64,000 nt of DNA, from NCBI RefSeq assembly GCF_009914755.1, contig NC_060934.1. The stretch is one strand, 5' to 3'. This DNA comes from the human T2T-CHM13v2.0 reference genome, Homo sapiens. This document shows, one piece after another, positions 25,900-54,957 of this stretch (positions within the stretch are counted from its first letter, which is position 1; each line of letters starts with the position of its first letter). Both the position numbers and the translations under genes were made by a program. Below the pieces are notes generated by a model. The model was not told where the DNA came from. It did not search any database and was given only the letters and a program-made list of their open reading frames with translations.

Positions 25900-27480
25900 T
25901 AGGGAGCCTTGGCGAGGTGGTGGGTCGGGTCCCTGCACGGCCCGGGATACAGCCTTGATCTTAAAGACGCAGCGCTTTGGAAACAAAAGGCCTGGCAGGC
26001 CCGCCGCTGGACACCAGCGCTGGGCAAGGAGCATCGAGCTGCAGGACAGAGCGCTGGGTCCCGGCCGCCGTTGACGCCCCTCCGAAAACAGCCGGGAGGA
26101 AGACCAGTCCCGCTCCGGTCGAGGCAAGTCAGGATCTATTCCAGTGAAGCGGCCCTTCCTGGGCTCAGTCGCTCCAGAGCAGAGTCTGCTCTGCCTCGGG
26201 GAAAGAATCACAGGAAACTTCCGCTCGTTTCAGAGCGGAGAGAGCTCGGGGCGCCATTTCCGCCAGGGCCACCGACTCCGAGAGTCCAGGCAGCCGGCCC
26301 GGGAGGAGCGGCTAGCAGGTCCCGAAGGCGGGTGAGGTGGCAGGCAGGGGCCGGCAGGGCAGCCGAGGGCCTTTCCTACGTCATGCCAAGAGGGCTGGGA
26401 GCCCCTAGAGCTGATCCTCCCTTAGCCCAGGTCAAGAGACTGGCTCGCGCGCGCTGTCTCTCTCCCTGTCTCCCTCAGAGGGCCCCTGCTCTCTGGAGCT
26501 CTTGACAAGAGCCCGAGGCTCCTCTTGCCGCCTAGGTCTGCCGAAAGTCCCCTCGGGTTCCCTCCTGCCCTAGGCAGCAGTTCCCTGCCTGTGCGCTTTG
26601 GGAACCCGGTGGCCGTGAAGTGAGGTGCGGACAGCTTCTGGGCCGCCTCGGCCAAGATGCTCAGGCGCACCTGGGGGTGTGTGCGGGAACCCTCAGCGGC
26701 AGCAGCCCAGCCCGGGGTGCAGTGTTGGCCCCAGAAACCAATGAGGTCCAAACGCCAGTCTCAGTTCCCCATCCCTGACATCGACCGAGGCAAGTTCCTA
26801 TTAAGGCCCAGAGATGACCCCGGGACGAGACAGGCTCATCCGGCGCGGATGAGACAGGCTCAGACCTGCGCGGTCTGAGGACGGCGCGCTCGCCGAGCAA
26901 CCCGGCAGGTCAGAACCCTGGACAGCGGCGCCGGTTTCCGCACCCCCACCCACCCCCGGCTGCTGCGGAGAAAGAAGCCGTACCGGGGGCCCAGCCGGGG
27001 CCCCTCGCTGCTCAGGGGTGGGATCCGCCCGGCCGGACCCCAGGCGTCCGGGGACCGACCCCAATCCTCTCCCAGTCCAAACCTGCGAAAGTTACTCCGG
27101 ACATGCGCTCAGCGCTGGCAACAGAGACAAAACTCCCTTCTCCGCAGTACCACGCGCCGCTCCTACCCGGCCGCTGCAGCCGGAAACCATCTCGCGGCCC
27201 CCGAGGAGAGTCCGGCCGCCTCACTGACTAGATAACCAGCCGAGCTCCCTCAACACACCCACCTCGCGGGGGCTCTAAGCCGGCTTGGGACCCTCGGCCT
27301 CGCCTCGCCCGGCGCTCCTCTCCCGGAGCCGCTAGGCTGGGCTCCTTCCCGTTGGCAAAACAGCGAGTAAACAAACAACCAAACAACCTTAGAAACGAAA
27401 GGCTGCACCAAACTTTGATGACGCCAGCCCCCTTTTTTTCCGAATGTCTCGACACCCGGGAGAAGGTGACTAATAGGTGT
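25900..27480. promoter_or_regulatory. Second, upstream CpG island
   Basis: GC/CpG-rich block separated from the promoter island by an AT-rich spacer (about 25480-25890). Confidence 0.85.
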
Positions 27481-31035: not shown

Positions 31036-32204
31036 AGGTATCTAGCACCTTCTCTGTGCCATGCCAGGGGATGCAGTTCTGAGCTCACAGCCCTGGGGAA
31101 CCAGCCCCTAGGGATTCTGGCTAGGGAAGGAGATGGGGATGCAGAGGTAAGGGAAACTCGCACCACGTGGAAACCACACCCAAAGGTACTGGATCCACTG
31201 TACCTTGTCTCCACCGCCCTAGAGGAACTTCTGGATGGGCAGCTCTGAGAACATAGCTCACCTCTAGCTGGGGAGGAGCTCCTGTCCTTATGTGCTCTCC
31301 TGCAGCTTCCAGTGGAGAAGAGACCAAAGACACAGTATCTCCTCTGTCCCCAGAGTTCTCGCCAGAGTCTTGTCAAGGGGTCTTGACAGGGCTAAGCATC
31401 AGCCGTCAGCCTCCTAATGGGACAATCTTGAGGGGCTAGGAGACCCACATTGGTCTGGGAGACCTCCTCCAGGTACACCCACAGTTTCGATTTCTTAGAT
31501 CCCAGCATCCAAGACTGCTCTAATTGATTCACTGGAGTCACTGACTTGGAGCAAAATACTTTTATAAGTATTTAGTTGGTAAGTCTAGCTACTATTAACA
31601 TGCAATAATGAATTGCTAATAAGAAAACTAAATCAATCTAAGGAAATCTCAAATTGGGACCGGCCAGAAATAGAAGAAAGATCTCAGTCTCCAAGTCTAA
31701 ATTATTTCACCAATAAACCTCTAGAAAAAAAAAATAGCTTTCAAGGTCAGCTCTTGGGTGCAAAGCTCTTTGGGTGCATTCATATGACTTGAATGGAGCT
31801 GTGGTACATGGAGAGGGGACTGGGAACAGCAGAGGCAGGGTTGGCGGCCAGTCCTCCTGATCCCCAGCCCGACACCCCCGGCTGCTGCCCCCTAAATAGG
31901 ACATGGCTCCCCTCAAACAAAACGCACGTTCAATTGCCCATATTAAGTGCTCGATAAATGTGTGGAATTTAATGGAAATTACCACGGAAGGAATGAAGTA
32001 AGTTTGCTACATGAATAATTAGCAAACACAATGAATCTTTTCCATTTCTAAGACTTGGATTATGTACATAGCTGCAGCAGGAGGCGTTTGGGTTTTCAAC
32101 CAGGAGAACTTGGGGTCAAGTCTGGCCTCTTAAACCTCCCTATTGACAAGGTCTGCCTGTCAGTACTTGATCCAGGCATCAGTAGGTTATTCTCGCTGCC
32201 CCCA

Positions 32205-32716
32205 GCACTCTCTCTTCTTTCTCTCTTTCCCTCTCCCCGTTTCTCTTTCTTCCTTTCACCACTTCATTCTTTCTCTTTCCAGCCCTCTCTCTCTTCCTCT
32301 TTTTTCTCTCCCTGTCTCTCTTGCTCTTTCTCTCCTTCTCTCCCTCTCCCTCTCTCTCCCTTCTTTCTCTCTCTCCTTCTCTCTCATTCTCTTCTTTCTC
32401 TCCTTCTTTCTGTCTCTCTTTCTCGCTCTCCCCTTTTTTCTCTCCCCTTCTGTCTCTCCTTTCTTTCCTTCTTTCTCTCTCTCTCTCTTTCTCTCTCTCC
32501 TTCTTTCTCTCTCTCCTTCTTTCCCTCCCTTTCTCTTTCTCCCCCTCCCTTCTTTCTCTCTCTCCTCTTTCTCTCTCTCCTTCTTTCCCTCCCTTTCTCT
32601 TTCTCTCCCTCCCTTCTTTCTCTCTCTCCTCTTTCTCTCTCTCCTTCTTTCCCTCCCTTTCTCTTTCTCTCCCTCCCTTCTTTCTCTCTCTCCTCTCTCT
32701 CTCCCCCTCCCACTCT
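32205..32716 (+). repeat. Long CT-rich tract containing a 64-bp tandem unit x~3
   Basis: ttccctccctttctctttct recurs at 32521, 32585, 32649. Confidence 0.9.
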
Positions 32717-34517
32717 CTCACACACGCAAAGACACACACAGTGAATACTTCTCAGCTGTGACTTCACTGTCATGCTCTTGCAATCCTGGATCAGCAGGGC
32801 CCTCCGTCTCCCCACCTGACCAGCCCACTCCCATCCACATCGGTCCCACCTCTCCAGGACTGCCCTCTGCCCTCCCCAACACCTCACTGCTCTGCTCTTG
32901 GTGACTCTGTTGGCCATGACCTTGCATGGCATAGCCAGGCCATAACAGGACTCCTCAGCACATTTCCCAGGGGTGGGGCACTGCCTCCCTCTCCTCCCCG
33001 TGGCCTCAGTCTCACTCAACAGCAGACTCTCAGAGCACATTTAGATCCCAATAGAAATATTTATTCCATGAAATTGTCTGCTGTCTAGGCAAGGCTGGCC
33101 CAGGCAATTCCCACTTTTCAGCCCCATCCCCAATCAGCCTGCAGCCCCCACAGGCCAGCCTGGCGAGAGGCAAGGTAACACACAGGGAGGCATGCACCTT
33201 TGCCCACCCATCCATCAGCCTCCTTATCCATTATTCAGACAGCTGTGCAGCCCCGTTTCGGTGGTCAGGTAACATTCAGCAGATGTACCTGGGGACCTGG
33301 GGAGGTTGGGGTGTTGGGAGGGCCTCGTACAGACACTGTAGCAAAGCTTGCCAAATCGAGACCTCCAGCAACAGGGAGTAGGTCCCCTGGATGCAGCCCT
33401 GGAGAGGACCTCAGCTGTCCAAGGCAGCCCCTCAGCCCCGGCAGCTTGGGCTCAGGGAGTCCCAGCCAGCCAGGCTGTCCATGGCGTCTTCACTCCCCCG
33501 CCACACCAGCCCAGCTCAGGACCAGGCCTCCCTTTTGCTGGAGGATGGAGGCCCCTCCTGTAGCCTGCACATTCTTCTTCTCCCTTATGCACTCATTTCT
33601 TCAACAGATGCTCACTGAGAACCCTGTTCATGCCAGCCTTACATGGGGGCAAAAGAAAAGAGATGTCATTTCCTTCACAGTGCTTAAACCTTTTAATATA
33701 ATATTTGTGTGTGTTCGTGTATGTGTGTTTACCAATATTATTTCCCCAACTAGACTGTAAATGCTGACTGTAAACAGCAGGTCAGCATGGGCTTAGCAGT
33801 GCTGGCACCTAGTAGGCATAAAATAAAGATCTGTTCAATGCATACATTAATAAGACAAGATCTACAGCTTCAAGTCACAGAGGACATAGCCGTGAACAAA
33901 GCATTTGGAGATAAGTGCCTCAGACAGCGAACAAAGCCAGTGCCTCCCTGCAGTGCTGGGCTGGTGTCCTTCAGTGCTCTCTGGGACAAGTCAGGCCTTG
34001 AATAATCGCATGAATTAAAGAGGGACAATCAATTGTCTCTTCTTTCCTGTATCTGTTACTAAAGGTTGCTGAGGGCCTTTAGAGAGTCACCTTCTACATG
34101 GTCATGGGGATACACGGTGTGCGAGCCAGGTGAACACCCTCTCCAGTCTTACAGGAAAGGCTGCAGCAGTGGGAAGGCACTTCTCCCTAGCCTGCTTCTC
34201 TTGACTGCACCCACAAACCATCCCAATGGCTACTCTCCCACCACGCTGCAGCTGAAGTCATAGAATGGATATGGGGCTTCATGTCCCAAATCCTTATTGC
34301 TGCTTTCCAGCTCTTTGGTTGTCTTAGCTTTTTGAGCATCATTTTTCCCATCTGCAAAGCCAAAAGGATTCCCATCATGGAAGAACTACTGTGTGAAATG
34401 GTAACATTCTCCACAGCTGATGGTGGTGGTTAGCAACTGTGACAGCCTTTCAGAAAACAGAGGAGGGGGGCAGCCCTTCCACATCTGCATATCTGTCCTC
34501 ACTCCTGAAATGCCCCC

Positions 34518-34725
34518 CGTCTTTCTCTCTCTCCCTCTCTCTCCTTCCTCCTTTTCTCTCTCCTCCTCCTCTTCCCTTTTTCCCACCCTCTCTCCCTACT
34601 CTCCCCTCCACTCCCTCCTTCCCTTCCTCTTTCCCTTCCCTCCCACTCCCTCTCCCTCTCTCCTCACCCCTTTCCCTCTCCCCTCCCTTCTGTCCCTCTT
34701 CCCCCTTTTCCTTCTCCTCCTGCCT
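34518..34725 (+). repeat. Polypyrimidine (CT-rich) tract
   Basis: C/T-dominated low complexity. Confidence 0.85.
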
Positions 34726-35264
34726 GTCCCCACCCAGGTCCAGACTCTGTCTGGCAACATCTATGCTAAACTCTGCTGTGTCCAAGTAATGCCTACTCCC
34801 CATTCCCTGCAATGGCTCTCCCAGGAGCACCTGCCTTGGCTCTCATGTCCTCGCCCCTTTAACCAGGAAATTGTGTTTGGAGTTGGGGGGTAGGAATGCA
34901 GAAGGGGTGAAGGGAAGGGGACCCTCATTTCTTACTTTAGGCAAAGGTTACCTTCTGGCTGTCCAGCCAGTGGGAGCATTGAGTTGTTTGGCCAGTGTCA
35001 GTATTAGAGTCGTTTTGTATTTTCTAAAATGTGAAAACAATTGCACGGAATGCATCTGGCGGAGGTTCTGGTCCCTTGGAATATCTCACCCCTCACACAA
35101 GGATACTTTCTGTCTCTTGTCTGAAGGCAGCTGAACTTATAATCCCTGAATGTATTTTTTAAGTGCTTTGTTTATGGCTGACTTTCCTTTTATTATGCTC
35201 TTCAGAAAAAGTTGTCTAAAGGAAAATCAATCAATCAATGAATTAAATGTTTAAAAAAATTTTA

Positions 35265-40328: not shown

Positions 40329-41251
40329 TTTGCTTCACTTTAATCTAAGCAATACCACACATCCACAATGGACAACAGAGGAAGTTGTTCTCTTTCCACT
40401 ACCTGATTGAGAGTGGTAGCTTACTGGCACGGCAGGGCTCTTGTTCTGATTTCATTAGATCTCAAATGGTCTCACTTGGGCTCCAGGAGGGTGGTCAAGA
40501 AGAGTGAAGATCAAAAAGGTTTTTCTCTCCACCACTCTGTCCCAGTGGTACAGAAACACAGGTGCCACTGGCCACCAGCTGTGCAGGGTCTCAGCTCTGC
40601 CAGTGACCTGCTTCCCTAAGCTTTATAAATTCCACTGCTGATCACCTGCTAAAGCTGACCAATTCCACCATCTCCCAGTCAGCCAGCCAGGAGAGTTTAG
40701 GTTCTGCCCGCAAACCAGGACTTCTGGACCTAAGCTGGGAAGGAGGTGGGGGAAGGCAAGAAAGCTATAAAACTCTTCCTCCTGCTTTAAAAAAACAGGA
40801 CATCGCCTTGTGAGAGAAATAGCTAAATATGATCACACTGGGCTTTAAGTGGAAAAAAAGAGTTAAAAAGAAAAAGAATGACAAGAGAAGCCTCTGATCC
40901 GTTCGTTATTCATTCAATAAATACCAACGGCTGTCTCTGTGCTGGGCCAGTGTTGCCCTGGGGAACCCAGCTGTATGTTTTATGGAATAGAATAACACAG
41001 GAGGCAATAGTCCCCCCTAAGCTGGCCCCCATACCTCCCCTCAGCCAGCACCATTCCCAGGATGGATAAACCGAGGCTTAGGGAGAGTCTATGCCTCACC
41101 CAAGATCATACAGGGACTTCAATGTCATCATTAAATGAGATCTAGTGCTCTGAGTTCCCAAGTGGATATCATTTCTTCCCACACCATTCCCACTGCTCAC
41201 CCTACTCAGCAGTCATGAAAAGTCAAGAGAAGCTCATGCCAGGGCGGGACC

Positions 41252-41629
41252 CTCCCCACAGCCACACTCTCCAGCGCTCTGTTTGCATACTCCCTCAGCA
41301 AGACCATCTTCTGTGAGTCCAAGTAAAGGAGTCTGGTGGAGTTGAGCTTGTTGGGGACATAAGCGGGGTTGGAGATGTCAGGGTTCACCTTGAAGTGAGA
41401 GAAGAAGGACATGAAGGAGGTGTGATGGGAGGCATTGGTCTTGTGGCCCACTGGGAAGACACACCAACCCTTGCAGTAATTGATTCGGTAGCTTGATGGG
41501 TGGTGGGAAGACTCAGCCAATGTCCTGGAAGTCCACTTTGTGTCTCACACTCCTCAGCCACCTGGGCTGGCTGGCGGTGATGTCTGGGGCAGCCAGACAC
41601 TGGGGCAGACGCTACAGCCCCAAGGGCAG
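41252..41629 (-). pseudogene. Last exon relic: furin site plus mature TGF-beta cystine-knot domain
   Basis: Acceptor ctctccactgctctgcag|41629; RHHR 41574-41585; C-ET/KVDFQDIG*(TGA 41513-41515)/HPSSYRINYCKGWCVFPVG...NPAYVPNKLNSTRLLYLD...VLLREY...E/CGC (41258-41266). Confidence 0.92.
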
Positions 41630-41814
41630 CTGCAGAGCAGTGGAGAGCATCAGAGGGGGCTCAGTATGACCATCCCCATTTGACCCTGCCCTGCACCCCA
41701 GCTCCCTTTGCCTGTGCCCCAGCCCTTGCACACCACTTCTGGCCTCACAGGCAAAGCTTTACTGGCCAACCAAGAACCACTTCTGCCTTCCAGGTGGTCC
41801 TACCTTTTCCTTAC

Positions 41815-41870
41815 CTCGTGGCCACGAGTAACACAACCAGGAGCCAGGCACTGAGCTGTGTGCTTCCCCG
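41815..41870 (-). pseudogene. Prodomain exon 3' end relic (LLVV/T motif)
   Basis: CTC CTG GTT GTG TT ACT resembles the prodomain PxLVxFT motif and ends at a strong donor GAG|GTAAGG. Confidence 0.5.
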
Positions 41871-41899
41871 TGTTAACTCTGCACCAGGTGCCAAATGGA

Positions 41900-42070
41900 T
41901 GGGAGCTAAACAGGATGCCTGCAGCCACACTGCCTGGATTCAAACTCTGGCTCAGGCTCTTACCAGCTGAGTGGCCTTTTTGTGCCTTCGTTTTCCTAGC
42001 TGTATAATAGTAATAATAATGGTATAAATCTCCTAGGCCTGCTGAGAACATTAAATTCATATGACTTGGT
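41900..42070 (+). mobile_element. MIR-like SINE
   Basis: gcagccacactgcctggattcaaactctggctc head and gtgccttcgttttcctagctgtataat core. Confidence 0.65.
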
Positions 42071-42119
42071 ATAAATGACAATTGATTCAGCTCCACATGA
42101 GAGGAACCAAATTGACCCC

Positions 42120-42343
42120 AGCTTAGGCCTCAAGTGATTCTCCCACCTAGCCTCCCAAGTAGCTAGGACTACAGGTGTGCAACACTACATCTAGCTCATC
42201 TTTTTTTTTTTTTTTTTTTTTTGGTAGAGACGGGGTCTTGCTGTGTTGCCAAGCTAATCTCAAACTCCTGGGTTCAAGCCATCCACCTGCCTCAGCCTCC
42301 CACGGTGCTGGGCTTACAGGGCATAAGACACTGAGCCCAGCCT
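42120..42343 (-). mobile_element. Partial AluJ-like element
   Basis: Reverse Alu: cctcccaagtagctaggactacagg, T-run linker, ggtagagacggggtcttgc, ctgagcccagcc. Confidence 0.85.
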
Positions 42344-42344
42344 A

Positions 42345-42592
42345 ATACCATATTTTTACTGCACCTCTTCTATGTTTAGATACGGTTAGAGACACAGATA
42401 TTTACCATTGTGTTACAATCACCTGCTCTACTCAGGACAGTAAAAGCCTGTACAAGTGTGTAGCCTGGGTGTGTAGTAGGCTATATCATCTAGGTCTGTG
42501 TAAGTACACTCTATGATGTTCACACAACAACAAAATCACCTAATGATGCATTTCTCAGAATGTATCCCCATCATTAATCAACACATGACCGT
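42345..42592. mobile_element. Tigger3/MER7-like DNA transposon fragment
   Basis: gtgtgtagtaggctatatcatctaggtctgtgtaagtacactctatgatgttcacacaac...cacatgaccgta. Confidence 0.75.
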
Positions 42593-43199
42593 ACCCACCA
42601 ATTCCCTTTCAGACAAACTGAATGAGCAAGTCATTGCTTCCAAGCCAGTGCACATTTGCAATGGAAAGACAACCCCAATAAACATTTTATCTTTGAATAT
42701 TAGCAATAGAAAAAATCTTCAATTTTGTGCAGTCTGACATCCCATACCCCAAAGTAGGAACCCAGAGAACAATGTCCCTGATTGCCATTATAGATTTGAG
42801 TTCCTAGAGCACCAAGGTGCCCCGCCTCATTGATTGGCATTTTGTGCCTCGGTTTCCCCATCTGTATAATAGCAGTAATACTGGTAAACCTCACAGGCTT
42901 GCTGAGAGTATTAAACTCATATGCCTTGGCATGGATGAGCTACTTCTCATAGCCCAAGGCAATATTCACAAGGTTGGGCATTCAGTGGTTTGTGAGGATG
43001 CCAAAGGGCCCATTGGTGTTCAGACCCAAGTCCAGCACGATGTGGCCCAGGTTTTCTTGATTTTACTCATTCATATTCTCTAATTTCAGCCACATTCCAT
43101 CTTTGTATCTAAGATCTACTATTGACTTCACATTTTTCTGTCAATTGCCTCACTTTGGTAACCAAAAGTGTAATTTAAATGGACACTTGGTAGCACTAT

Positions 43200-44625
43200 G
43201 ATAAACTCAGTATTCTTATGCACACAAGGATCAATATAAAATAAACACATCGTACAAATGATACTCCAATAGCAACGTGCACAAAAAGGGCTCACTGGCT
43301 TCTAAATAATATTCCCCACTGCAACAGGGGCCAGGCTTGCAAATGTTACATAAGTTTGAAATTATTTCAGAATGAAGAGTTTAAAATCGGGAGGAGGGAG
43401 GAAGGGAGGGAAGGACAGGACTTCTCAGAAGGAGGTCTGATTCCAGCCAGGATACGGAATGTACACAAGGAGCTGTGCCAGGAGGTGAGGACATGGCCAA
43501 AGGCAATGGGAGCCTGTCAAAAGGCCACCAGCACTATCTCACAGCAGCTCCTGGCCAAGACTAGGAATATTTGAGCATCAAAATAAATGATGAGGCTAAT
43601 GGATTATAATCTAGTGAATAAAACAAAATTCCATGAGTCCATTCTGATGGAAATAAATAAGGAGGAGCAGCTCTTCCTTCCAGTAAATGCCGATAATAAA
43701 TGTAGGAGTGACAGAGTCAGAAAATCCTTTGGCAGCCCTCATAGTAATAATGCATTCAGGCAAAACTCATCAATGAGGTTAAAACACTGGGCAAAAGTTG
43801 GATGAGGAATAGGATACTTGCATAATCTCAGAAAGATGTCCCCACAAATTACTTACTGAGCTCAAAGGCGTTAAAATTAGCTTACATTCGCAGGGCCTGG
43901 AGTCGACCACCCTACCCAGGGATTTCGGGACAGATGTGCCCCTCCTGATGTGATCGGCTACAGATGCTTCACCCAGAGCATGAGGAAACATCAGGCAGAC
44001 CCAAACCAAGAGACATTCTGTGAACTCCAAATTGTGAATGTCATGAAGGCTGAGGAAGGGCGGGGGACTATCCCAGCTGCAGGAGACTAAAGGGGTAGAT
44101 GACCGAATGCAGCATGGGAGCCTGGACAGGCAGGCAGGAGAGCTGCTAAGGACAGTGTGGGAAGAGCTGGCAAAGTGTGAATGTGGATCAGTGTTGTGTC
44201 AATGTGAAGTTTCCTGGTTTTGATAACTGTACTGCGATTCTCTAAGAGATCGCCCTTGTGCCTTGGAAAAACACTGAAATATTTAGGCGCAAAGGGGCAT
44301 GATACCTGCAACTTACTCTCAAACGTTTGGGGAAAAAAAAATGTGTACTTGTGTATGCATGCGTGCATGTATATGTGTCTGGAGAGAGAGAGAGGAGAGG
44401 AGAAGAAAGACAGAAGAGGAGAAGGGGAGGAGAGGGAGAAAGAGAGGAGAGGAGAGATGAGGAAAGAAGGGGAAGGGAGAGGGGAGAGAATACAAATGGT
44501 AAAATAAATGGAACAAAAACATAAACAGTTGGTGAATTTGGATCAAAAGCTCATGGGAGTTATCTGCCACTCTCATAGCTTTTCCGTAAGTTTGAAGTTA
44601 TTTCTAAATAGAAACATCTTTAAAG
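43200..44625 (+). mobile_element. Old L1M (L1MC/MD-like) 3' fragments with internal GA-rich tract (44382-44490)
   Basis: L1M 3' ends at about 43385 and 44625 (taagtttgaa(a/g)ttattt), gaaaaacactgaaatatttagg...gcatgatacctgcaacttactctcaa. Confidence 0.65.
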
Positions 44626-44725
44626 TGAAAGGTATTTGACCGTGTGCTGATCCAGATGCTCTGCTTTGGGCACCACCAAAAGAGTGACAAAGGGATGTGG
44701 CTGACAGCTCCCAGCCCCCCAGCAC
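44626..44725 (-). pseudogene. Possible 5' half of a prodomain exon (VLGGWELSATS/FVTLLVVPKAEHLDQHTVKYLS)
   Basis: Weak acceptor cacag|GTG; spacing W...D...V-K-Y-x-S resembles the ADMP W...D...I-R-F-A-S segment; abuts the L1M end. Confidence 0.3.
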
Positions 44726-44930
44726 CTGTGTGTGAGGTATCTGGGAGTCCTCCCAACCGTGATCTCCCCACACCTGTAAATGAGCCAGATAGGCTGGAGG
44801 AGACTCCTCTGAAATGAGGCATACAGAAGCACCAGGAGTGGTGTCTGGTAGGTCCTGGGTGCTCCATGACACTGCTCCCCTCACCCCTGGACCCCTCTAG
44901 TCCAGAAGGTCCAGACCCTCACTGTCTTAC

Positions 44931-45045
44931 ATCTGGGTGACATCAAAAGTTAGCCAGCTTTGGGAGGCCAGAGGCATGCTTCTGGCCAAGAGGAGGCTCC
45001 CTCCTTCTGACTCTGGGGTAGATCCAAGGAATTTGTGGATTTTAC
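44931..45045 (-). pseudogene. Prodomain exon relic (V/IHKFLGSTPESEGGSLLLARSMPLASQSWLTFDVTQ)
   Basis: Acceptor gtgtccccag|GTA, donor |GTAAGA at 44930; LL..R......W..FDVT is the conserved TGF-beta prodomain motif. Confidence 0.8.
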
Positions 45046-46332
45046 CTGGGGACACAGCACTCCTGCCATGAGCATAGCCCTCACTCCCAAAAGAGAAGAA
45101 GAAAAGCTACACATCGTGCCCTTGAGAAATAAGACACAGGTGCAAGAAAAGCTTGCTGTCATGCAAGCAGGGAGGTGGAAGGTGAACGGCCTCTGACCTG
45201 GGAAGTCTTGCAAGAAACTGATGTAAAATGAGAGGGGAGAAAGATTTCATGCATGGAAATGTCCAGAGGGGTTATTTATAACAGAAGAAGCTGGGAAATT
45301 GATGTTAAGTAAATTAGGATACACCCACTTGATACAATATTATGTGATCCGAAGAACTCTTCAAAGGGGAAAATGATTGGATTAAGACATCAAATGAAAA
45401 TATACAGATAGATAAACTATAATCTACCATGAAAAACTATAAGAAAAAAGACTGGAAGGAAATAGATCTAGATGTTAATTACAGTCGCTCCTGAGTGGTG
45501 CGATCATGGGTGTCTTACTTGCCTCTCCTTTGGACTTTTTGTAGTTCCCATGGGTTATGTTACCTTGTTGCCTGTGGAATAAAATCCAACTGCCTTGTTC
45601 CCATTCCTGGCCTTCTGTGATGAGCCCTGGCTCATCACTCATTCCAGCAGTGCCCTCCTTGCCCATGCTCTCCTCCTCCTAGAGTCCCTCCTGGGCCTAG
45701 CAAAGTCTGTGCAGCTCTCAAGGCCAGCTCAGACGACAGGAGCGTTTCTGGGGACAACGCTGGCCTCCAGTGTTGCCCCACTGATGAGTGTGGAAGAGTG
45801 AGTGTAGTGCCGTTTCGGATACCTGCCTCCTAGGCATCCAGCTCTGTCCCTTAAGACCCTCCCCAAAACGGGCATTCTCCCTGCCTCTCCATGGCTCCTG
45901 GAGAGCCTGTCTCTCCACCTTGTCTCCCCAGATCAGGGCCTTTGAGAACAGAGCCCTTACCTGACTTACCCTTAGAAATAAACAAGAAACAAGCAGTAAA
46001 GGAGTGAGGGGAACAGGGAGAGGAAAGGAGTTGGGGCTTGCTAGATCACCCGGAAACACAGAGCACCCACCCTGTGCCACCTGCATGCTGGCTGCTGGGA
46101 CGCCCACCCCGGCTCCTTCAGAAACAGCCCTGGAGCCAGAGCTGCTGCCCTCGTGGCTTCTCCCCCACAGGCCACCCCCAGGCCAGGCTTGAGGCCAGGA
46201 AACTGGCTTGCAGGGAGCCCAGGGGAAATGCATCTGGACGGGTCAAAGCCGGCTGTCCTCCCCAGGAGCGCTCCCTCCAGCGTGGACTCGCAGACTGCCT
46301 CCCGGCACCGCACCACACCACAGGCCTCTCAC

Positions 46333-46447
46333 CTGTGCTAATGCTAGGCTTTGTCTCAGGAAGTAGTCTCCTGCGGATGCCAGAGCTTGAACATGTGGAG
46401 CTGAGCTTGGCTGTCAGAACCTTCTCCAGCTTGGCCCAGGGGAGACC
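46333..46447 (-). pseudogene. Prodomain exon relic (AKLEKVLTAKL/HMFKL)
   Basis: CTAAC branch point 46476-46480, acceptor cccttttcctccag, donor CAG|GTGAGA; 5-nt AGCTC duplication frameshift; matches EKILTAELHLFKL of ADMP as recalled. Confidence 0.85.
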
Positions 46448-46714
46448 CTGGAGGAAAAGGGCGGCTGTCGGTGCTGTTAGGAGCCCGCGGCCCCTAGCAC
46501 TCGCCCTTGGGCGGGGTTGGGAATAAGGGTAAGGCCGGGGAGGCTGGGTCCGAGGAACAAAAGCGTTAGGTCCGGGGTGGCGCTCCTGCCCTCCAGTAAG
46601 GGGGCCTCACTCCTGCTCCCCTTCTCCCAGTCTGTTTCCCTCTCCCCTCCCCGACACGCCCCCACCTCCAGACCCACCCTCCATCTCCCCCCCACCCACC
46701 AGGCAGCCCAGCAC

Positions 46715-46987
46715 CCTCTCCCCCTGGAGGCACCACACGTGTTGCCTGTGGCAGCGTTGGTCCTTGGTGACCCCGCTGGAGTCGGCACCCTTCTGGAAGG
46801 GGTCCCGCATGCAGCCAAGTGTGGGTGGGGGAACACATGGGCGTGCCCCTCCAGGGCAACAGGTGTTCCATCTCCAACACCAGCTGCTTCTCCTTCTCGG
46901 CCTCGTACCTGGCCACCAGTGCCCCCAGGCCCAGGAGCAGAGGACCAGGCTGGCCCAGCTCGCCACAGGCAGCAACTGCAGGGCAAC
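46715..46987 (-). pseudogene. First exon relic: signal-like peptide and N-terminal prodomain (CMRDPFQKGADSSGVTKD/NAATGNT/V)
   Basis: Hydrophobic VALQLLPVASWASLVLCS without ATG; YMxDL-like motif at 46810, ADxxGVTKD and GNTV with the spacing of ADMP; exon ends approximate. Confidence 0.75.
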
Positions 46988-48629
46988 GGCTCCCGCCCTG
47001 GGGGTGGGGGTGGTGACCAAGGGCTGGGTAGGTCTGGCCCCACCCTCCCTGGAAAGGAGGCCTCCTGAGGGGACAGAGTGGGTACCCTCTGTGCCCAGGA
47101 CCATACTTGTGTTTGGGCCTCAGTTTCCCCATCTGCAAAGAGCTCCTGAAACCCCCATAGAGGGTACCCGGAGGACACTCTGAGGTTGTAAGTGGAGCAC
47201 CAGCAAAGCACAGGCACCAAATATTAACTACTTTAATGATTTCACACTAGATACCTAAAGAAAAAAATCTCAACTCCAGAAGTGCATGGGAGGAAAATCT
47301 GTGCTTCTAGGGCCCTCCTGTGCTTGCATTTGGTATTGTTTGTATTTGGAAGTGAATTGTAGGGAAGGGCATTTTACCGCTTCAGGGTTTGGGGGCTCCA
47401 AAGGCCCTTACAGAATTCTCATCTGCTTCTCATGCCCTCATGGGGGCAAGAGTGGATCCCCAATATAGATCCCTCCCAGGGCAGAATGTGGGCCCCAGGG
47501 GCATTCCTCAGCCCAGACTGCAGGCCACAAGCCCGGGCTTCTGCCCTGCCTCAGCACCCATAGCTGAGGGCAAATTACGTTGCTTTGCCCTGCCTCAGTT
47601 TCTCCATTTGCAGTCAGGGATGAACACTTCATGCGCAGGACTGCAATGAGTAATAAATCAAATGAGGGTGTGAGCCTACCCAGCTCACAACAACCACTGC
47701 TGGACAAAACCCAGCTCTGCCCACCTCATAGTTTTTTCAAATTCCTGACTAGGCTTAAAAAAGACTGGTCAATCTGGTTGGACCCCAACATTTTTAAAGC
47801 CAGAAGTCTGAGAATCTTTCAGGGGAAGTATGGGAGCAATGCTGTGGGTGTTGCACTAACTCTGTTCAGTAAAAAGAACTGGGCTTGGAGTGACAGAGAC
47901 CTAACTTCCCGTTCTGCCCCTGCCGGGGATGTGTGCAAACCCAGGCATGCTGTTTGAACTCAGCTTTGTCATCTACAAACAGGAATAACAACATTCCTGC
48001 CAAGGGCTGTGGGGAAGATCAGGGATCAAGATCACTCCACTTACCGGCTCTGTGGGAGGCTTGGTGCTGGCTGAGGTGTGTCAGTGACTGCCACGGGCTG
48101 CACCCCTCACTGTTGCCTGAAGTCACCCAAGGTCGCCCAAGGTCAGTGGGAAATATCCAGGGATGACGGTGGATCCTGGGAGCGCCTCACAACAGCTACC
48201 TTCGGCACAGCACGACTTTGGAAGGCCTAAAGTTTGAACCAAAAATGGAGCCCCTGCCGCTCTCCCCATATGGGATTCAAATTGAAAAGCTACAAGGTAA
48301 AATAAGAGAAGCCACAGGTGCAGAGTTTTCTTCCTGGGGGCAAGCCTGTTACTTTTCTTTTTTTTTTTTTATTGTAAATATACTTGTTTTTATTTTTTAT
48401 TTATTTATTTATTTTTTTATTATACTTTAAGTTCTAGGGTACATGTGCACAAAGTGCAGGTTTGTTGCATATGTATACATGTGCCATATTGGTGTGATGC
48501 ACCCATTAACTCATCATTTACATTAGGTATATCTCCTAATGCTATCCCTCCCCTCTCCCTCCACCCCACAACAGGCCCCGGTGTGTGCTGTCCCCCTTCC
48601 TGTGTCCAAGTGTTCTCATTGTTCAATTC

Positions 48630-52450
<3,821 letters not shown>

Positions 52451-52513
52451 TATGATGTTAGCTGGTTATTTTGCTCATTAGTTGGTGCAGTTTCTTCCTA
52501 GCCTCGACGGTCT

Positions 52514-53530
52514 TTACAATTTGGCATGTTTTTGCAGTGGCTGGTAACGGTTGTTCCTTTCCATGTTTAGTGCTTCCTTCAGGAGCTCTTGTAGGACAGG
52601 CCTGGTGGTGACAAAATCTCTCAGCATTTGCTTGTCTGTAAAGTATTTTATTTCTTCTTTACTTATGAAGCTTAGTTTGGCTGGATATGAAATTCTGGGT
52701 TGAAAATTCTTTTCTTTAAGTATGCTGAATATTGGCCCCCACTCTCTTCTGGCTTGTAGAGTTTCTGTCGAGAGATCAGCTGTTAGTCTGATGGGCTTCC
52801 CTTTGTGGGTAACCCGAGCTTTCTCTCTGGCTGCCCTTAACATTTTTTCCTTCATTTCAACTTTGATGAATCTGACAATTATGTGTCTTGGAGTTGCTCT
52901 TCTCGAGGAGTATCTCTGTGGCATTCTCTGTATTTCCTGAATTTGAATGTTGGCCTGCCTTGCTAGGTTGGGAAAGTTCTTCTGGATAATATCCTGCAGA
53001 GTGTTTTCCAACTTGCTTCCATTCTCGCCATCACTTTCGAGTACACCAATCAGATGTAGATTTGGTCTTTTCACATAGTCCCATATTTCTTGGAGCCTTC
53101 GTTCGTTTCTTTTTATTCTTTTTTCTCTAAACTTGTCTTCTTGCTTCATTTCATTCATTTGATCTGTCATCACTGATACCCTTTCTTACAGTTGATCGAA
53201 TCAGCTACTGAAGCTTGTGCATTCATCACGTAGTTCTCGTGCCATGGTTTTCAGCTCCATCAGGTCCTTTAAGGACTTCTCTGCATTGGTTATTCTAGTT
53301 AGCCATTCGTCTAACCTTTTTTCAAGGTTTGTAACTTCTTTGCTATGGGTTCGAACTTCCTCCTTTAGCTCAGAGAAGTTTGATCGTCTGGAGCCTTCCT
53401 CTCTCAACTTGTGAAAGTCATTGTCCATCCAGCTTTGTTCCGTTGCTGGTGAGGAGCTGCGTTCCTTTGGAGGAGGAGAGGCGCTCTGATTTTTAGAATT
53501 TTCAGTTTTTCTGCTCTGTTTTTTCCCCAT
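52514..53530 (-). pseudogene. L1 ORF1, disrupted by two in-frame stops
   Basis: MGKKQSRK at 53530; TGA 53201-53203 and TAA 53186-53188; same frame continues to ...QKHAKL*. Confidence 0.93.
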
Positions 53531-54957
53531 CTTTGTTGTTTTATCTACCTTTGGTCTTTGACGATGGTGACGTACAGATGGGGTTTTGGTGTGGATGTCC
53601 TTTCTGTTAGTTTTCCTTCTAACAGTCAGGACCCTCAGCTGCAGGTCTGTTGGAGTTTGCTGGAGGTCCACTTCAGACCCTGTTTGCCGGGGTATCAGCA
53701 GCGGAGGCTGCAGAACAGCGAATATTGGTGAACAGCAAATGGTGCTGCCTGTTCGTTCCTCTGGAAGTTTCATCTCAGGGGGTACCCGGCTGTGTGGGGT
53801 GTCAGTCTGCCCCTACTTGGGGGTGCCTCCCAGTTAGGCTACTTGGGGGTCAGGGACCCACTTGAGGAGGCAGTCTGTCTGTTCTCAGATCTCAAGCTCC
53901 GTGTTGGGAGAACCACTACTGTCTTCCAAGTTGTCAGACAGGGATATTTAAGTCTGCAGAGGTTTCTGCTGCCTTTTGTTTGGCTATGCCCTGCCCCCAG
54001 AGGTGGAATCTACAGAGGCAGGCAGGCCTCCTTGAACTGTGGTGGGCTCCACCCAGTTTGAGCTTCCTGGCAGCTTTGTTTACCTACTCAAGCCTCAGCA
54101 GTGGCCGGCGCCCCTCCCCCGCCTCGCTGCCACATTACAGTTCTATCTCAGACTGCTGTGCTAGCAATGAGCGAGGCTCCGTGGGTGTAGGAGCCTCCAA
54201 GCCAGGCGCGGGATATAATCTCCTGGTGTGCCATTTGCTAAGACCATTGGAAAAGTGCAGTATTAGGGTGGGAGTGATTTGATTTTCCAGGTGCCATTTG
54301 TCACCCCTCCCCTTGGCTAGGAAAAGGAATTCCCTGTCCCCTTGTGCTTCCCAGGTGAGGCGATGCCTCGTCCTGCTTCGGCTCATGCTCAGTGTGCTAC
54401 ACCCACTGTCCTGCACCCACTGTCCGACAATCCCCAGTGAGATGAACCCAGTACCTCAGCTGGAAATGCAGAAATCACCTGTCTTCTGCATCTCTCACGC
54501 TGGGAGCTGTAGACTGCTGTAGACTGGAGCTGTTCCTATTCGGCCATCATGGAACCGCCCAAGCCTGTTACTTTTCTAGAGTATGAAAATTATTCCAACC
54601 CTGTTTCTCATGTGGAAGCTTGGGTGACTGACCCGGGAGAAAGCTCTGGGGCCCTACTACCTTCCAGGCAGCTCTGGTTTCAGCCTAAATGGCCTGGGGC
54701 TGTCAGTGACTCTCTCCAGGAAGAGCTTCCTGGCTGCCCAGAGCCCTCTCTCCCACTCCTGCGCATGACTCTGAGGGGTGTCAGTCACCCCATGCCCAGC
54801 AGCCCAGGCTCACCAAGACGGCCTCTTCCCAGGGCTCAGAGGGATGAACAAGCATCGGTGTGTGGAGGAGGGGGCGTCTGGAGAGGGGGGGTCTTGAGAT
54901 TGCACCTGCCTTGGGATAGGTTCCTCCTTGGTCCAAGGGTGAGTTGGGGATGGGAAG

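What the first reader, a model, noticed from the sequence alone, without database searches (positions are those of the whole stretch)
41252..41629. Lesion inventory and unusually well-preserved coding signature of the mature-domain exon
The exon has a frameshifting deletion after Cys1 (41547-41549), W-to-stop TGA at 41513-41515, a second deletion in the WII-x-P segment, Cys5 TGT>TAT, and a 1-nt deletion before CGC. Yet about 75 codons remain open, and 48 of 60 codons in 41281-41460 end in G/C (hand count). The many non-consensus residues (NASHHTSFMSFFSHFK) use clean GC3 codons. This suggests the protein diverged while still functional, and that the gene died late or decayed slowly.
Basis: partly seen in the sequence, partly recalled or inferred. 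Interest (0 to 1): 0.7.

Follow-up and report, generated by a model that had tools for sequence, protein, structure and literature searches.

The report
Human fossil of lost ADMP2 gene
Between DRGX and ERCC6 the human genome holds an unannotated broken copy of ADMP2, a BMP-family growth-factor gene reported as absent from mammals; predicted intact versions in marsupials, echidna, sloth and other non-boreoeutherian placentals mean it was likely lost only after placental mammals split.

Summary
The exon is the last exon of an unannotated, single-copy unitary pseudogene of ADMP2 (BMP family; minus strand, 46966-41255). Four of five exons remain; exon 4 was not found. The mammalian proteins fall inside vertebrate ADMP2 (100/100; grouping with ADMP1 rejected, p-AU 0.0005). 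Database models with a whole mature domain exist in four marsupials, echidna, sloth, tamandua, manatee and elephant; no named boreoeutherian appeared. This conflicts with the published absence of ADMP2 from mammals (PMC3296468).

GC3 48/60 is confirmed and is the strongest such signal in the window. The lesion list needs correcting. The W-I-I-x-P lesion is best read as -9 and +4. The stop, Cys5>Tyr and the -1 before CGC hold.

Most 'non-consensus' residues are inherited mammalian ADMP2 features (12 of 16 match sloth), so divergence while functional is supported. GC3 cannot date the loss; 22 of 94 conserved residues changed, which fits a loss older than the anthropoid ancestor, likely about 50-90 Mya. 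All therian models lack the interchain cysteine.

The parts
46718..46966 (-). Exon 1 remnant: signal peptide and start of prodomain; start codon reads GTG; six deletions (1,1,6,1,2,1 nt)
   Evidence: (115-136 bits against controls of 30 or less)
46335..46467 (-). Exon 2 remnant (prodomain): 1-nt deletion, 5-nt insertion, stops at 46358, 46346, 46340
   Evidence: (53-64 bits against 22 or less)
44932..45045 (-). Exon 3 remnant (prodomain), 37 open codons, 22 of 36 identical to sloth
   Evidence: (E 1.6e-9)
41660..44931 (-). Interval where exon 4 (62 codons in orthologue models) is expected; no trace found, likely deleted
   Evidence: best window hit iE 2.9; 16-20 bits, same as controls
41255..41629 (-). 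Last exon: end of prodomain, furin site and TGF-beta mature domain (5' edge 41629 or 41659)
41612..41614 (-).
41543..41554 (-).
41536..41542 (-). Junction of the in-frame 39-nt deletion that removed Cys1
41497..41517 (-). Net -5 lesion: 9-nt deletion, W>TGA (41515-41513), 4-nt insertion
41269..41499 (-). 77 open codons, GC3 58/77; Cys2 (41475) and Cys3 (41463) kept
41359..41364 (-). Interchain-Cys position (Ser in all therian models, Ala here) and Cys5>Tyr
41258..41268 (-). 1-nt deletion, then out-of-frame C-G-C; native stop lost

Best explanation
This is a broken, single-copy, multi-exon remnant of the vertebrate ADMP2 gene that cannot encode a folded ligand, and it likely stopped working on the human line about 50-90 million years ago, after placental mammals split. 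Shown: TGF-beta domain, four exon remnants in order, the lesions, placement with placental proteins, and placement of the mammalian proteins in ADMP2. Inferred: the ancestral product was a secreted precursor (signal peptide, prodomain, furin cut at R-S-V-R, cystine-knot ligand) signalling through BMP receptors and Smad1/5/8 like other ADMPs. In therians it would dimerise without a disulfide, because the interchain Cys is Ser. The protein changed fast on the mammalian and therian stems while under selection, which explains the odd residues. The high GC3 is leftover codon bias from a GC-rich gene, eroded by roughly 0.07-0.14 substitutions per site of neutral decay. The loss was likely separate from that in the lineage(s) behind the unnamed decayed records P0002, P0004, P0005 and P0039.
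For: Pfam TGF_beta E 3.9e-10. Closest whole proteins are marsupial, xenarthran, afrotherian and echidna models. The human row groups with placental rows 100/99. The mammal clade lies inside ADMP2 100/100; mammals+ADMP1 rejected p-AU 0.00046, mammals outside both 0.00041. Exons 1-3 and 5 are colinear on one strand. One locus in the genome: 59% identity to sloth against at most 51% for the 28 other matches; the DNA search finds only itself. 22 of 94 residues invariant in 7 therian models are changed; simulation fits nominal d 0.07-0.13 and rejects 0.05 (P 0.01) and 0.16 (0 of 80). 24 of 31 human-sloth differences need one base change. The frameshift after Q-K-T, present in 4 of 4 unnamed decayed records against sloth, is absent in human. 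Human's 39-nt deletion is absent in P0002, P0004 and P0005, and Cys5>Tyr is absent in all four.
Against: Synteny of the intact models was not testable. 'Intact' rests on gene models only: manatee and tamandua carry 48- and 38-residue insertions that look like retained intron, and the four elephant models lack the N-terminus and disagree; one changes 6 of 49 invariant residues. Some may be decaying. The protein searches are incomplete: one search missed the marsupial proteins found, and neither named a bird or reptile ADMP2, so absence of boreoeutherians is weak evidence. Mammalian branches are long. Dating uses only gap-free blocks, a guessed mutation model and a partly recalled calibration; the 77-codon block alone allows d up to about 0.22. 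A +1 frameshift shared by P0002, P0004 and P0005 lies in the stretch deleted in human, so a shared first lesion cannot be excluded. The source taxa of those records are unknown.
Confidence: 0.85

Rival explanations
1. Same gene, but one loss on the boreoeutherian stem (about 90-95 Mya, recalled date), with all visible lesions arising later and separately.
For: No named boreoeutherian among 77 and 66 hits. The 77-codon block alone fits d 0.14-0.22. The +1 lesion of P0002/4/5 falls where human has a deletion. A clade of human plus the four decayed records is not rejected (p-AU 0.44).
Against: The all-exon count rejects nominal d 0.16 (0 of 80). No lesion is shown to be shared. Human keeps the invariant Pro that is Ser in all four decayed records.
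Confidence: 0.3
2. ADMP2 was already relaxed in the placental ancestor and is dying in every placental order; the xenarthran and afrotherian models are lightly damaged pseudogenes.
For: Long branch to placentals (0.39; 0.48). Odd insertions in the manatee and tamandua models, partial elephant models.
Against: The sloth model is whole, with signal peptide, furin site and six cysteines. Terminal branches of sloth, tamandua and manatee are short (0.04-0.11) against 0.46 for human, which needs selection.
Confidence: 0.1
3. A mammal-specific BMP paralogue or an ADMP1 remnant rather than ADMP2.
For: The mature-domain tree alone leaves the mammal clade outside both ADMP groups. RefSeq names the models BMP2-like, BMP7-like or dpp-like.
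Against: Full-length trees and AU tests. The exon-2 segment matches caecilian ADMP2-clade rows closely.
Confidence: 0.05
4. The open frame is kept by selection on a present-day product (an 81-aa peptide or an RNA).
For: A 98%-identical 81-aa predicted ORF, P0001, is in the library. GC3 is high.
Against: A stop-free 77-codon block arises in 33-41% of neutral runs at d 0.14 (substitutions only). 12 of 42 invariant residues changed. No transcript is annotated. P0001 is a mechanical prediction.
Confidence: 0.03

Closest known systems
Vertebrate ADMP2 (Xenopus laevis admp2.L, P0173)
   Same: Same clade in full-length trees; signal peptide, prodomain, furin site, TGF-beta domain.
   Different: Mammalian members are much diverged and lack the interchain Cys in therians; the human copy is dead. 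PMC3296468 reports ADMP2 absent from mammals.
Vertebrate ADMP1 (admp, pinhead-linked)
   Same: Sister paralogue; same domain layout.
   Different: Grouping rejected (p-AU 0.00046).
Human unitary pseudogenes, such as the crescent remnant (PMC6886504) and GULO or UOX (recalled)
   Same: Single-copy, intron-containing, disabled orthologue of a gene that is coding elsewhere.
   Different: Not in the RefSeq table of this window and not among the chr10 rows of the 44 unitary pseudogenes of PMC6886504. Its intact orthologues lie outside Boreoeutheria, so comparisons with mouse would miss it (inference).
GDF9, BMP15, GDF3, Lefty (TGF-beta ligands without the interchain cysteine; recalled)
   Same: Therian ADMP2 models have Ser at that position.
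   Different: Separate lineage, so a convergent loss; dimer state untested.

Membership tests
TGF-beta/BMP superfamily | TGF_beta mature domain above Pfam's cut-off | tested here: met
   40.8 bits against cut-off 27; best PDB matches BMP3/6/7
TGF-beta/BMP superfamily | Six cystine-knot cysteines in one frame | tested here: not met
   Human: Cys1 deleted, Cys5 Tyr, Cys6-7 out of frame. Met in the sloth, tamandua, manatee, elephant and marsupial models.
TGF-beta/BMP superfamily | Signal peptide, prodomain and R-x-x-R site | tested here: met
   As remnants by alignment: exons 1-3 and R-S-V-R at 41554-41543; no signal-peptide predictor was run
Vertebrate ADMP2 | Clade with Xenopus admp2 to the exclusion of ADMP1 | tested here: met
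   100/100 for full-length mammalian models, AU tests; human row with placental rows 100/99
Vertebrate ADMP2 | Conserved synteny with frog, fish or bird admp2 | not testable with these tools
   No vertebrate genome other than the window's own is held
Vertebrate ADMP2 | BMP-type signalling activity | not testable with these tools
   Needs an assay
Unitary pseudogene | Disabling lesions | tested here: met
   12 small indels, 5 stops, start lost, one exon missing
Unitary pseudogene | No intact copy elsewhere in the genome | tested here: met
   29 matches to the sloth protein, only this one above 51% identity; DNA search 1 match
Unitary pseudogene | Intron-containing, not retroposed | tested here: met
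   Four remnants over 5.7 kb, with breaks at the positions where orthologue models show insertions
Unitary pseudogene | Functional orthologue in other species | tested here: inconclusive
   Whole or near-whole gene models in 9 mammals; expression and synteny not seen

The most novel reading that the evidence does not exclude
Therian mammals carry an overlooked TGF-beta ligand: ADMP2 was remodelled on the mammalian stem, lost its interchain cysteine like GDF9, BMP15 and GDF3, and took a new role, possibly in the ovary or early conceptus. It is almost invariant across marsupials, still works in sloths, anteaters, manatees and elephants, and was lost several times independently in boreoeutherians, including the early primate line.
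Probability: 0.25. Interest if true: 0.75.

Novelty: new member of a known kind. Interest (0 to 1): 0.55.

Why it matters
ADMP2 is cited among the axis-patterning genes lost in early mammals (PMC3296468, repeated as 'ADMP' in PMC12344233). If the gene models are real genes, it survived into marsupials, echidna, Xenarthra and Afrotheria under misleading BMP2-like or BMP7-like names, and the placental ancestor had one more BMP ligand than human or mouse suggest. The loss can then be dated lesion by lesion in public alignments, and function can be tested in opossum or dunnart embryos. It also adds an unannotated human unitary pseudogene.

Tried and rejected
Word-index search with the human fragment: 0 of 5 candidates scored. 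ESM Atlas gave no answer for the human fragment or P0002; for P0003 it gave only general BMP/ADMP clusters. Pfam on six other frames near exons 1, 2 and 5: 0 of 6 matched. The mature-domain tree does not separate ADMP1 from ADMP2. With distant BMP outgroups the root fell among ADMP2-clade rows, so the tree was rebuilt on invertebrate ADMPs. AlphaFold of the sloth protein had mean pLDDT 45 and was not used. Exon 4 was not found by two methods. A 60-column tree could not place the four unnamed decayed records within placentals. GC3 was rejected as a clock. Literature: 0 papers for DRGX+ERCC6+synteny and for 'unitary pseudogene'+admp; searches listed no paper on this locus by title or abstract start. 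Earlier scan findings were not available.

Full report
Observation. The minus strand at 41499-41269 gives 77 open codons of a TGF-beta mature domain (Pfam E 3.9e-10; best solved relatives BMP3/6/7). It is the strongest phase-GC contrast in the window; 0 of 311 background windows reach it.

Lesions. Frameshift-aware alignments to sloth, tamandua, manatee and elephant models confirm the TGA at 41515-41513, Cys5>Tyr at 41361-41359 and the 1-nt deletion before C-G-C. They overturn the first lesion. It continues into V-D-F-Q-D-I-G, so Cys1 was removed by an in-frame 39-nt deletion. The segment around the stop is net -5: -9 and +4 with 3 of 4 references, -4 and -1 with tamandua. A further stop at 41614-41612 and loss of the native stop were not listed.

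The whole gene. Orthologue models find three more exon remnants upstream on the same strand: 46966-46718, 46467-46335 and 45045-44932 (53-136 bits against controls of 30 or less). Exon 1 has GTG at the start position and six deletions; exon 2 has two indels and three stops; exon 3 is open. The 62-codon exon 4 was not found by a protein HMM or by a frameshift-tolerant search, both of which found exons 1-3. The locus is single-copy: 1 DNA match, and the only one of 29 protein matches above 51% identity. The RefSeq table given with the finding has no row for it.

Identity. A full HMMER search gave five hits at E up to 1e-10. One, P0003, is a 394-aa marsupial protein. Searching with it (77 hits of 1736 candidates) and with part of the sloth protein (66 of 207) returned models from Gracilinanus, Macrotis, Trichosurus, Sarcophilus, Tachyglossus, Choloepus, Tamandua, Trichechus and Loxodonta, then amphibian and fish ADMPs, including Xenopus admp2.L. 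No named boreoeutherian appeared, but one search missed the marsupials and neither call named a sauropsid, so this absence is weak evidence. The human reading groups with the placental rows at 100/99. In a 19-row full-length tree rooted on two invertebrate ADMPs, five mammalian rows lie within ADMP2 (100/100); mammals+ADMP1 is rejected at p-AU 0.00046 (rows were a hand-picked subset). The mature domain alone did not resolve this. Synteny of the orthologues could not be checked.

The odd residues. The 16-residue segment matches sloth at 12, manatee 10, marsupials 8 and non-mammalian ADMPs 3-4 positions. Of 43 human residues absent from six non-mammalian rows, 20 are shared with an intact mammalian model and 23 are human-only. 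All therian models have Ser at the interchain cysteine, whereas echidna, amphibians and fish keep Cys. The four marsupial mature domains differ at one position.

Dating. Of 94 residues invariant in seven therian models, 22 are changed in human. Neutral simulation (HKY with CpG, parameters my own choice) fits nominal 0.07-0.13 substitutions/site and rejects 0.05 (P 0.01) and 0.16 (0 of 80); the 77-codon block alone fits 0.10-0.22. The distance from the ape-New World monkey ancestor to apes is 0.042 (10.1101/036434, passage). PMC10195156 sets 0.18 for about 90 My in a simulation (passage). The loss is therefore older than anthropoids and likely 50-90 Mya. Biases run both ways: gap-free blocks understate decay, and such sites also change in working lineages (one elephant model, 6 of 49). 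GC3 of 58/77 is reached in 20%, 66% or 83% of runs at d 0.14 for starting weights 0.85, 0.92 or 0.97, so it is no clock.

One loss or several. Four unnamed records (P0002, P0004, P0005, P0039) are ORFs read across frameshifted copies of this exon and fall in the placental clade (97/97). Against sloth, all four have a frameshift after Q-K-T that human lacks. The three that cover it share a +1 after D-I-G, in the stretch deleted in human. The three that cover Cys1 keep that segment, and none has Tyr at Cys5. No lesion is shown to be shared with human, which favours separate losses, but their taxa are unknown and a shared first lesion is not excluded.

How it worked. By family knowledge (inferred, untested): a secreted precursor cut by furin at R-S-V-R, releasing a cystine-knot ligand for BMP receptors and Smad1/5/8, likely a non-covalent dimer in therians. 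Xenopus ADMP2 is reported as needed for primitive blood and heart (Kumano 2006, seen only as a reference title and as cited in PMC3296468). A tilapia gene named admp2 is ovary-enriched (PMC5979292, passages). The human copy cannot fold: three of six knot cysteines are lost or altered (Cys1, Cys5) or out of frame (Cys6-7 together).

What is known. PMC3296468 (abstract, passages, sections 9 and 23; supplements not readable) states that mammalian orthologues of ADMP1 and ADMP2 were absent. It notes that Afrotheria and Xenarthra had only 2x genomes, and that TBLASTN of eutherian genomes found no orthologue of the lost genes. Its Table S3 on platypus and opossum may already record a non-eutherian ADMP2. 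PMC12344233 repeats the absence of ADMP (passage). PMC6886504 (passages; supplements 2-7 and 9 searched, 1 and 8 not) and PMC10195156 (passages, one supplement) have no hit for ADMP, DRGX or ERCC6; of the chr10 places in PMC6886504 file S1 I saw 30 of 239. PMC11226491 (passages) concerns the ambulacrarian ADMP2, a separate naming; PMC4600745 gave no hit. Ten library searches showed no description of this locus; subscription journals, GENCODE and HGNC were not searchable.

Verdict. A real, unannotated unitary pseudogene of ADMP2. The interest lies in the apparent survival of a cysteine-altered ADMP2 in marsupials and in Xenarthra and Afrotheria, which rests on gene models, of which the manatee, tamandua and elephant ones are imperfect.

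Noticed in passing
48344-54104, minus strand: A long LINE-1 with broken ORF1/ORF2 frames ends about 1.4 kb upstream of the pseudogene's start codon; it may have inserted into the old promoter and its age could bound the loss.
   Followed up: no
46000-47200: GC 0.65 but CpG observed/expected 0.29, against 0.71 at the island 25900-27300: looks like a decayed CpG island over exons 1-2.
   Followed up: partly
41209-41451, minus strand: The protein library holds an 81-aa predicted ORF (P0001) 98% identical to this frame, likely a spurious call on host DNA.
   Followed up: partly
P0156, P0157 (manatee, tamandua models): 48- and 38-residue insertions at exon junctions suggest retained intron in the model or damaged splice sites.
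   Followed up: no
DRGX coding exons 24225-15261: GC3 114 of 175 (65%) in the live neighbour gene, lower than the dead exon's 75-80%.
   Followed up: no
32050-32760 and 34420-34840: Long CT/GA-rich simple repeats giving spurious long ORFs.
   Followed up: no
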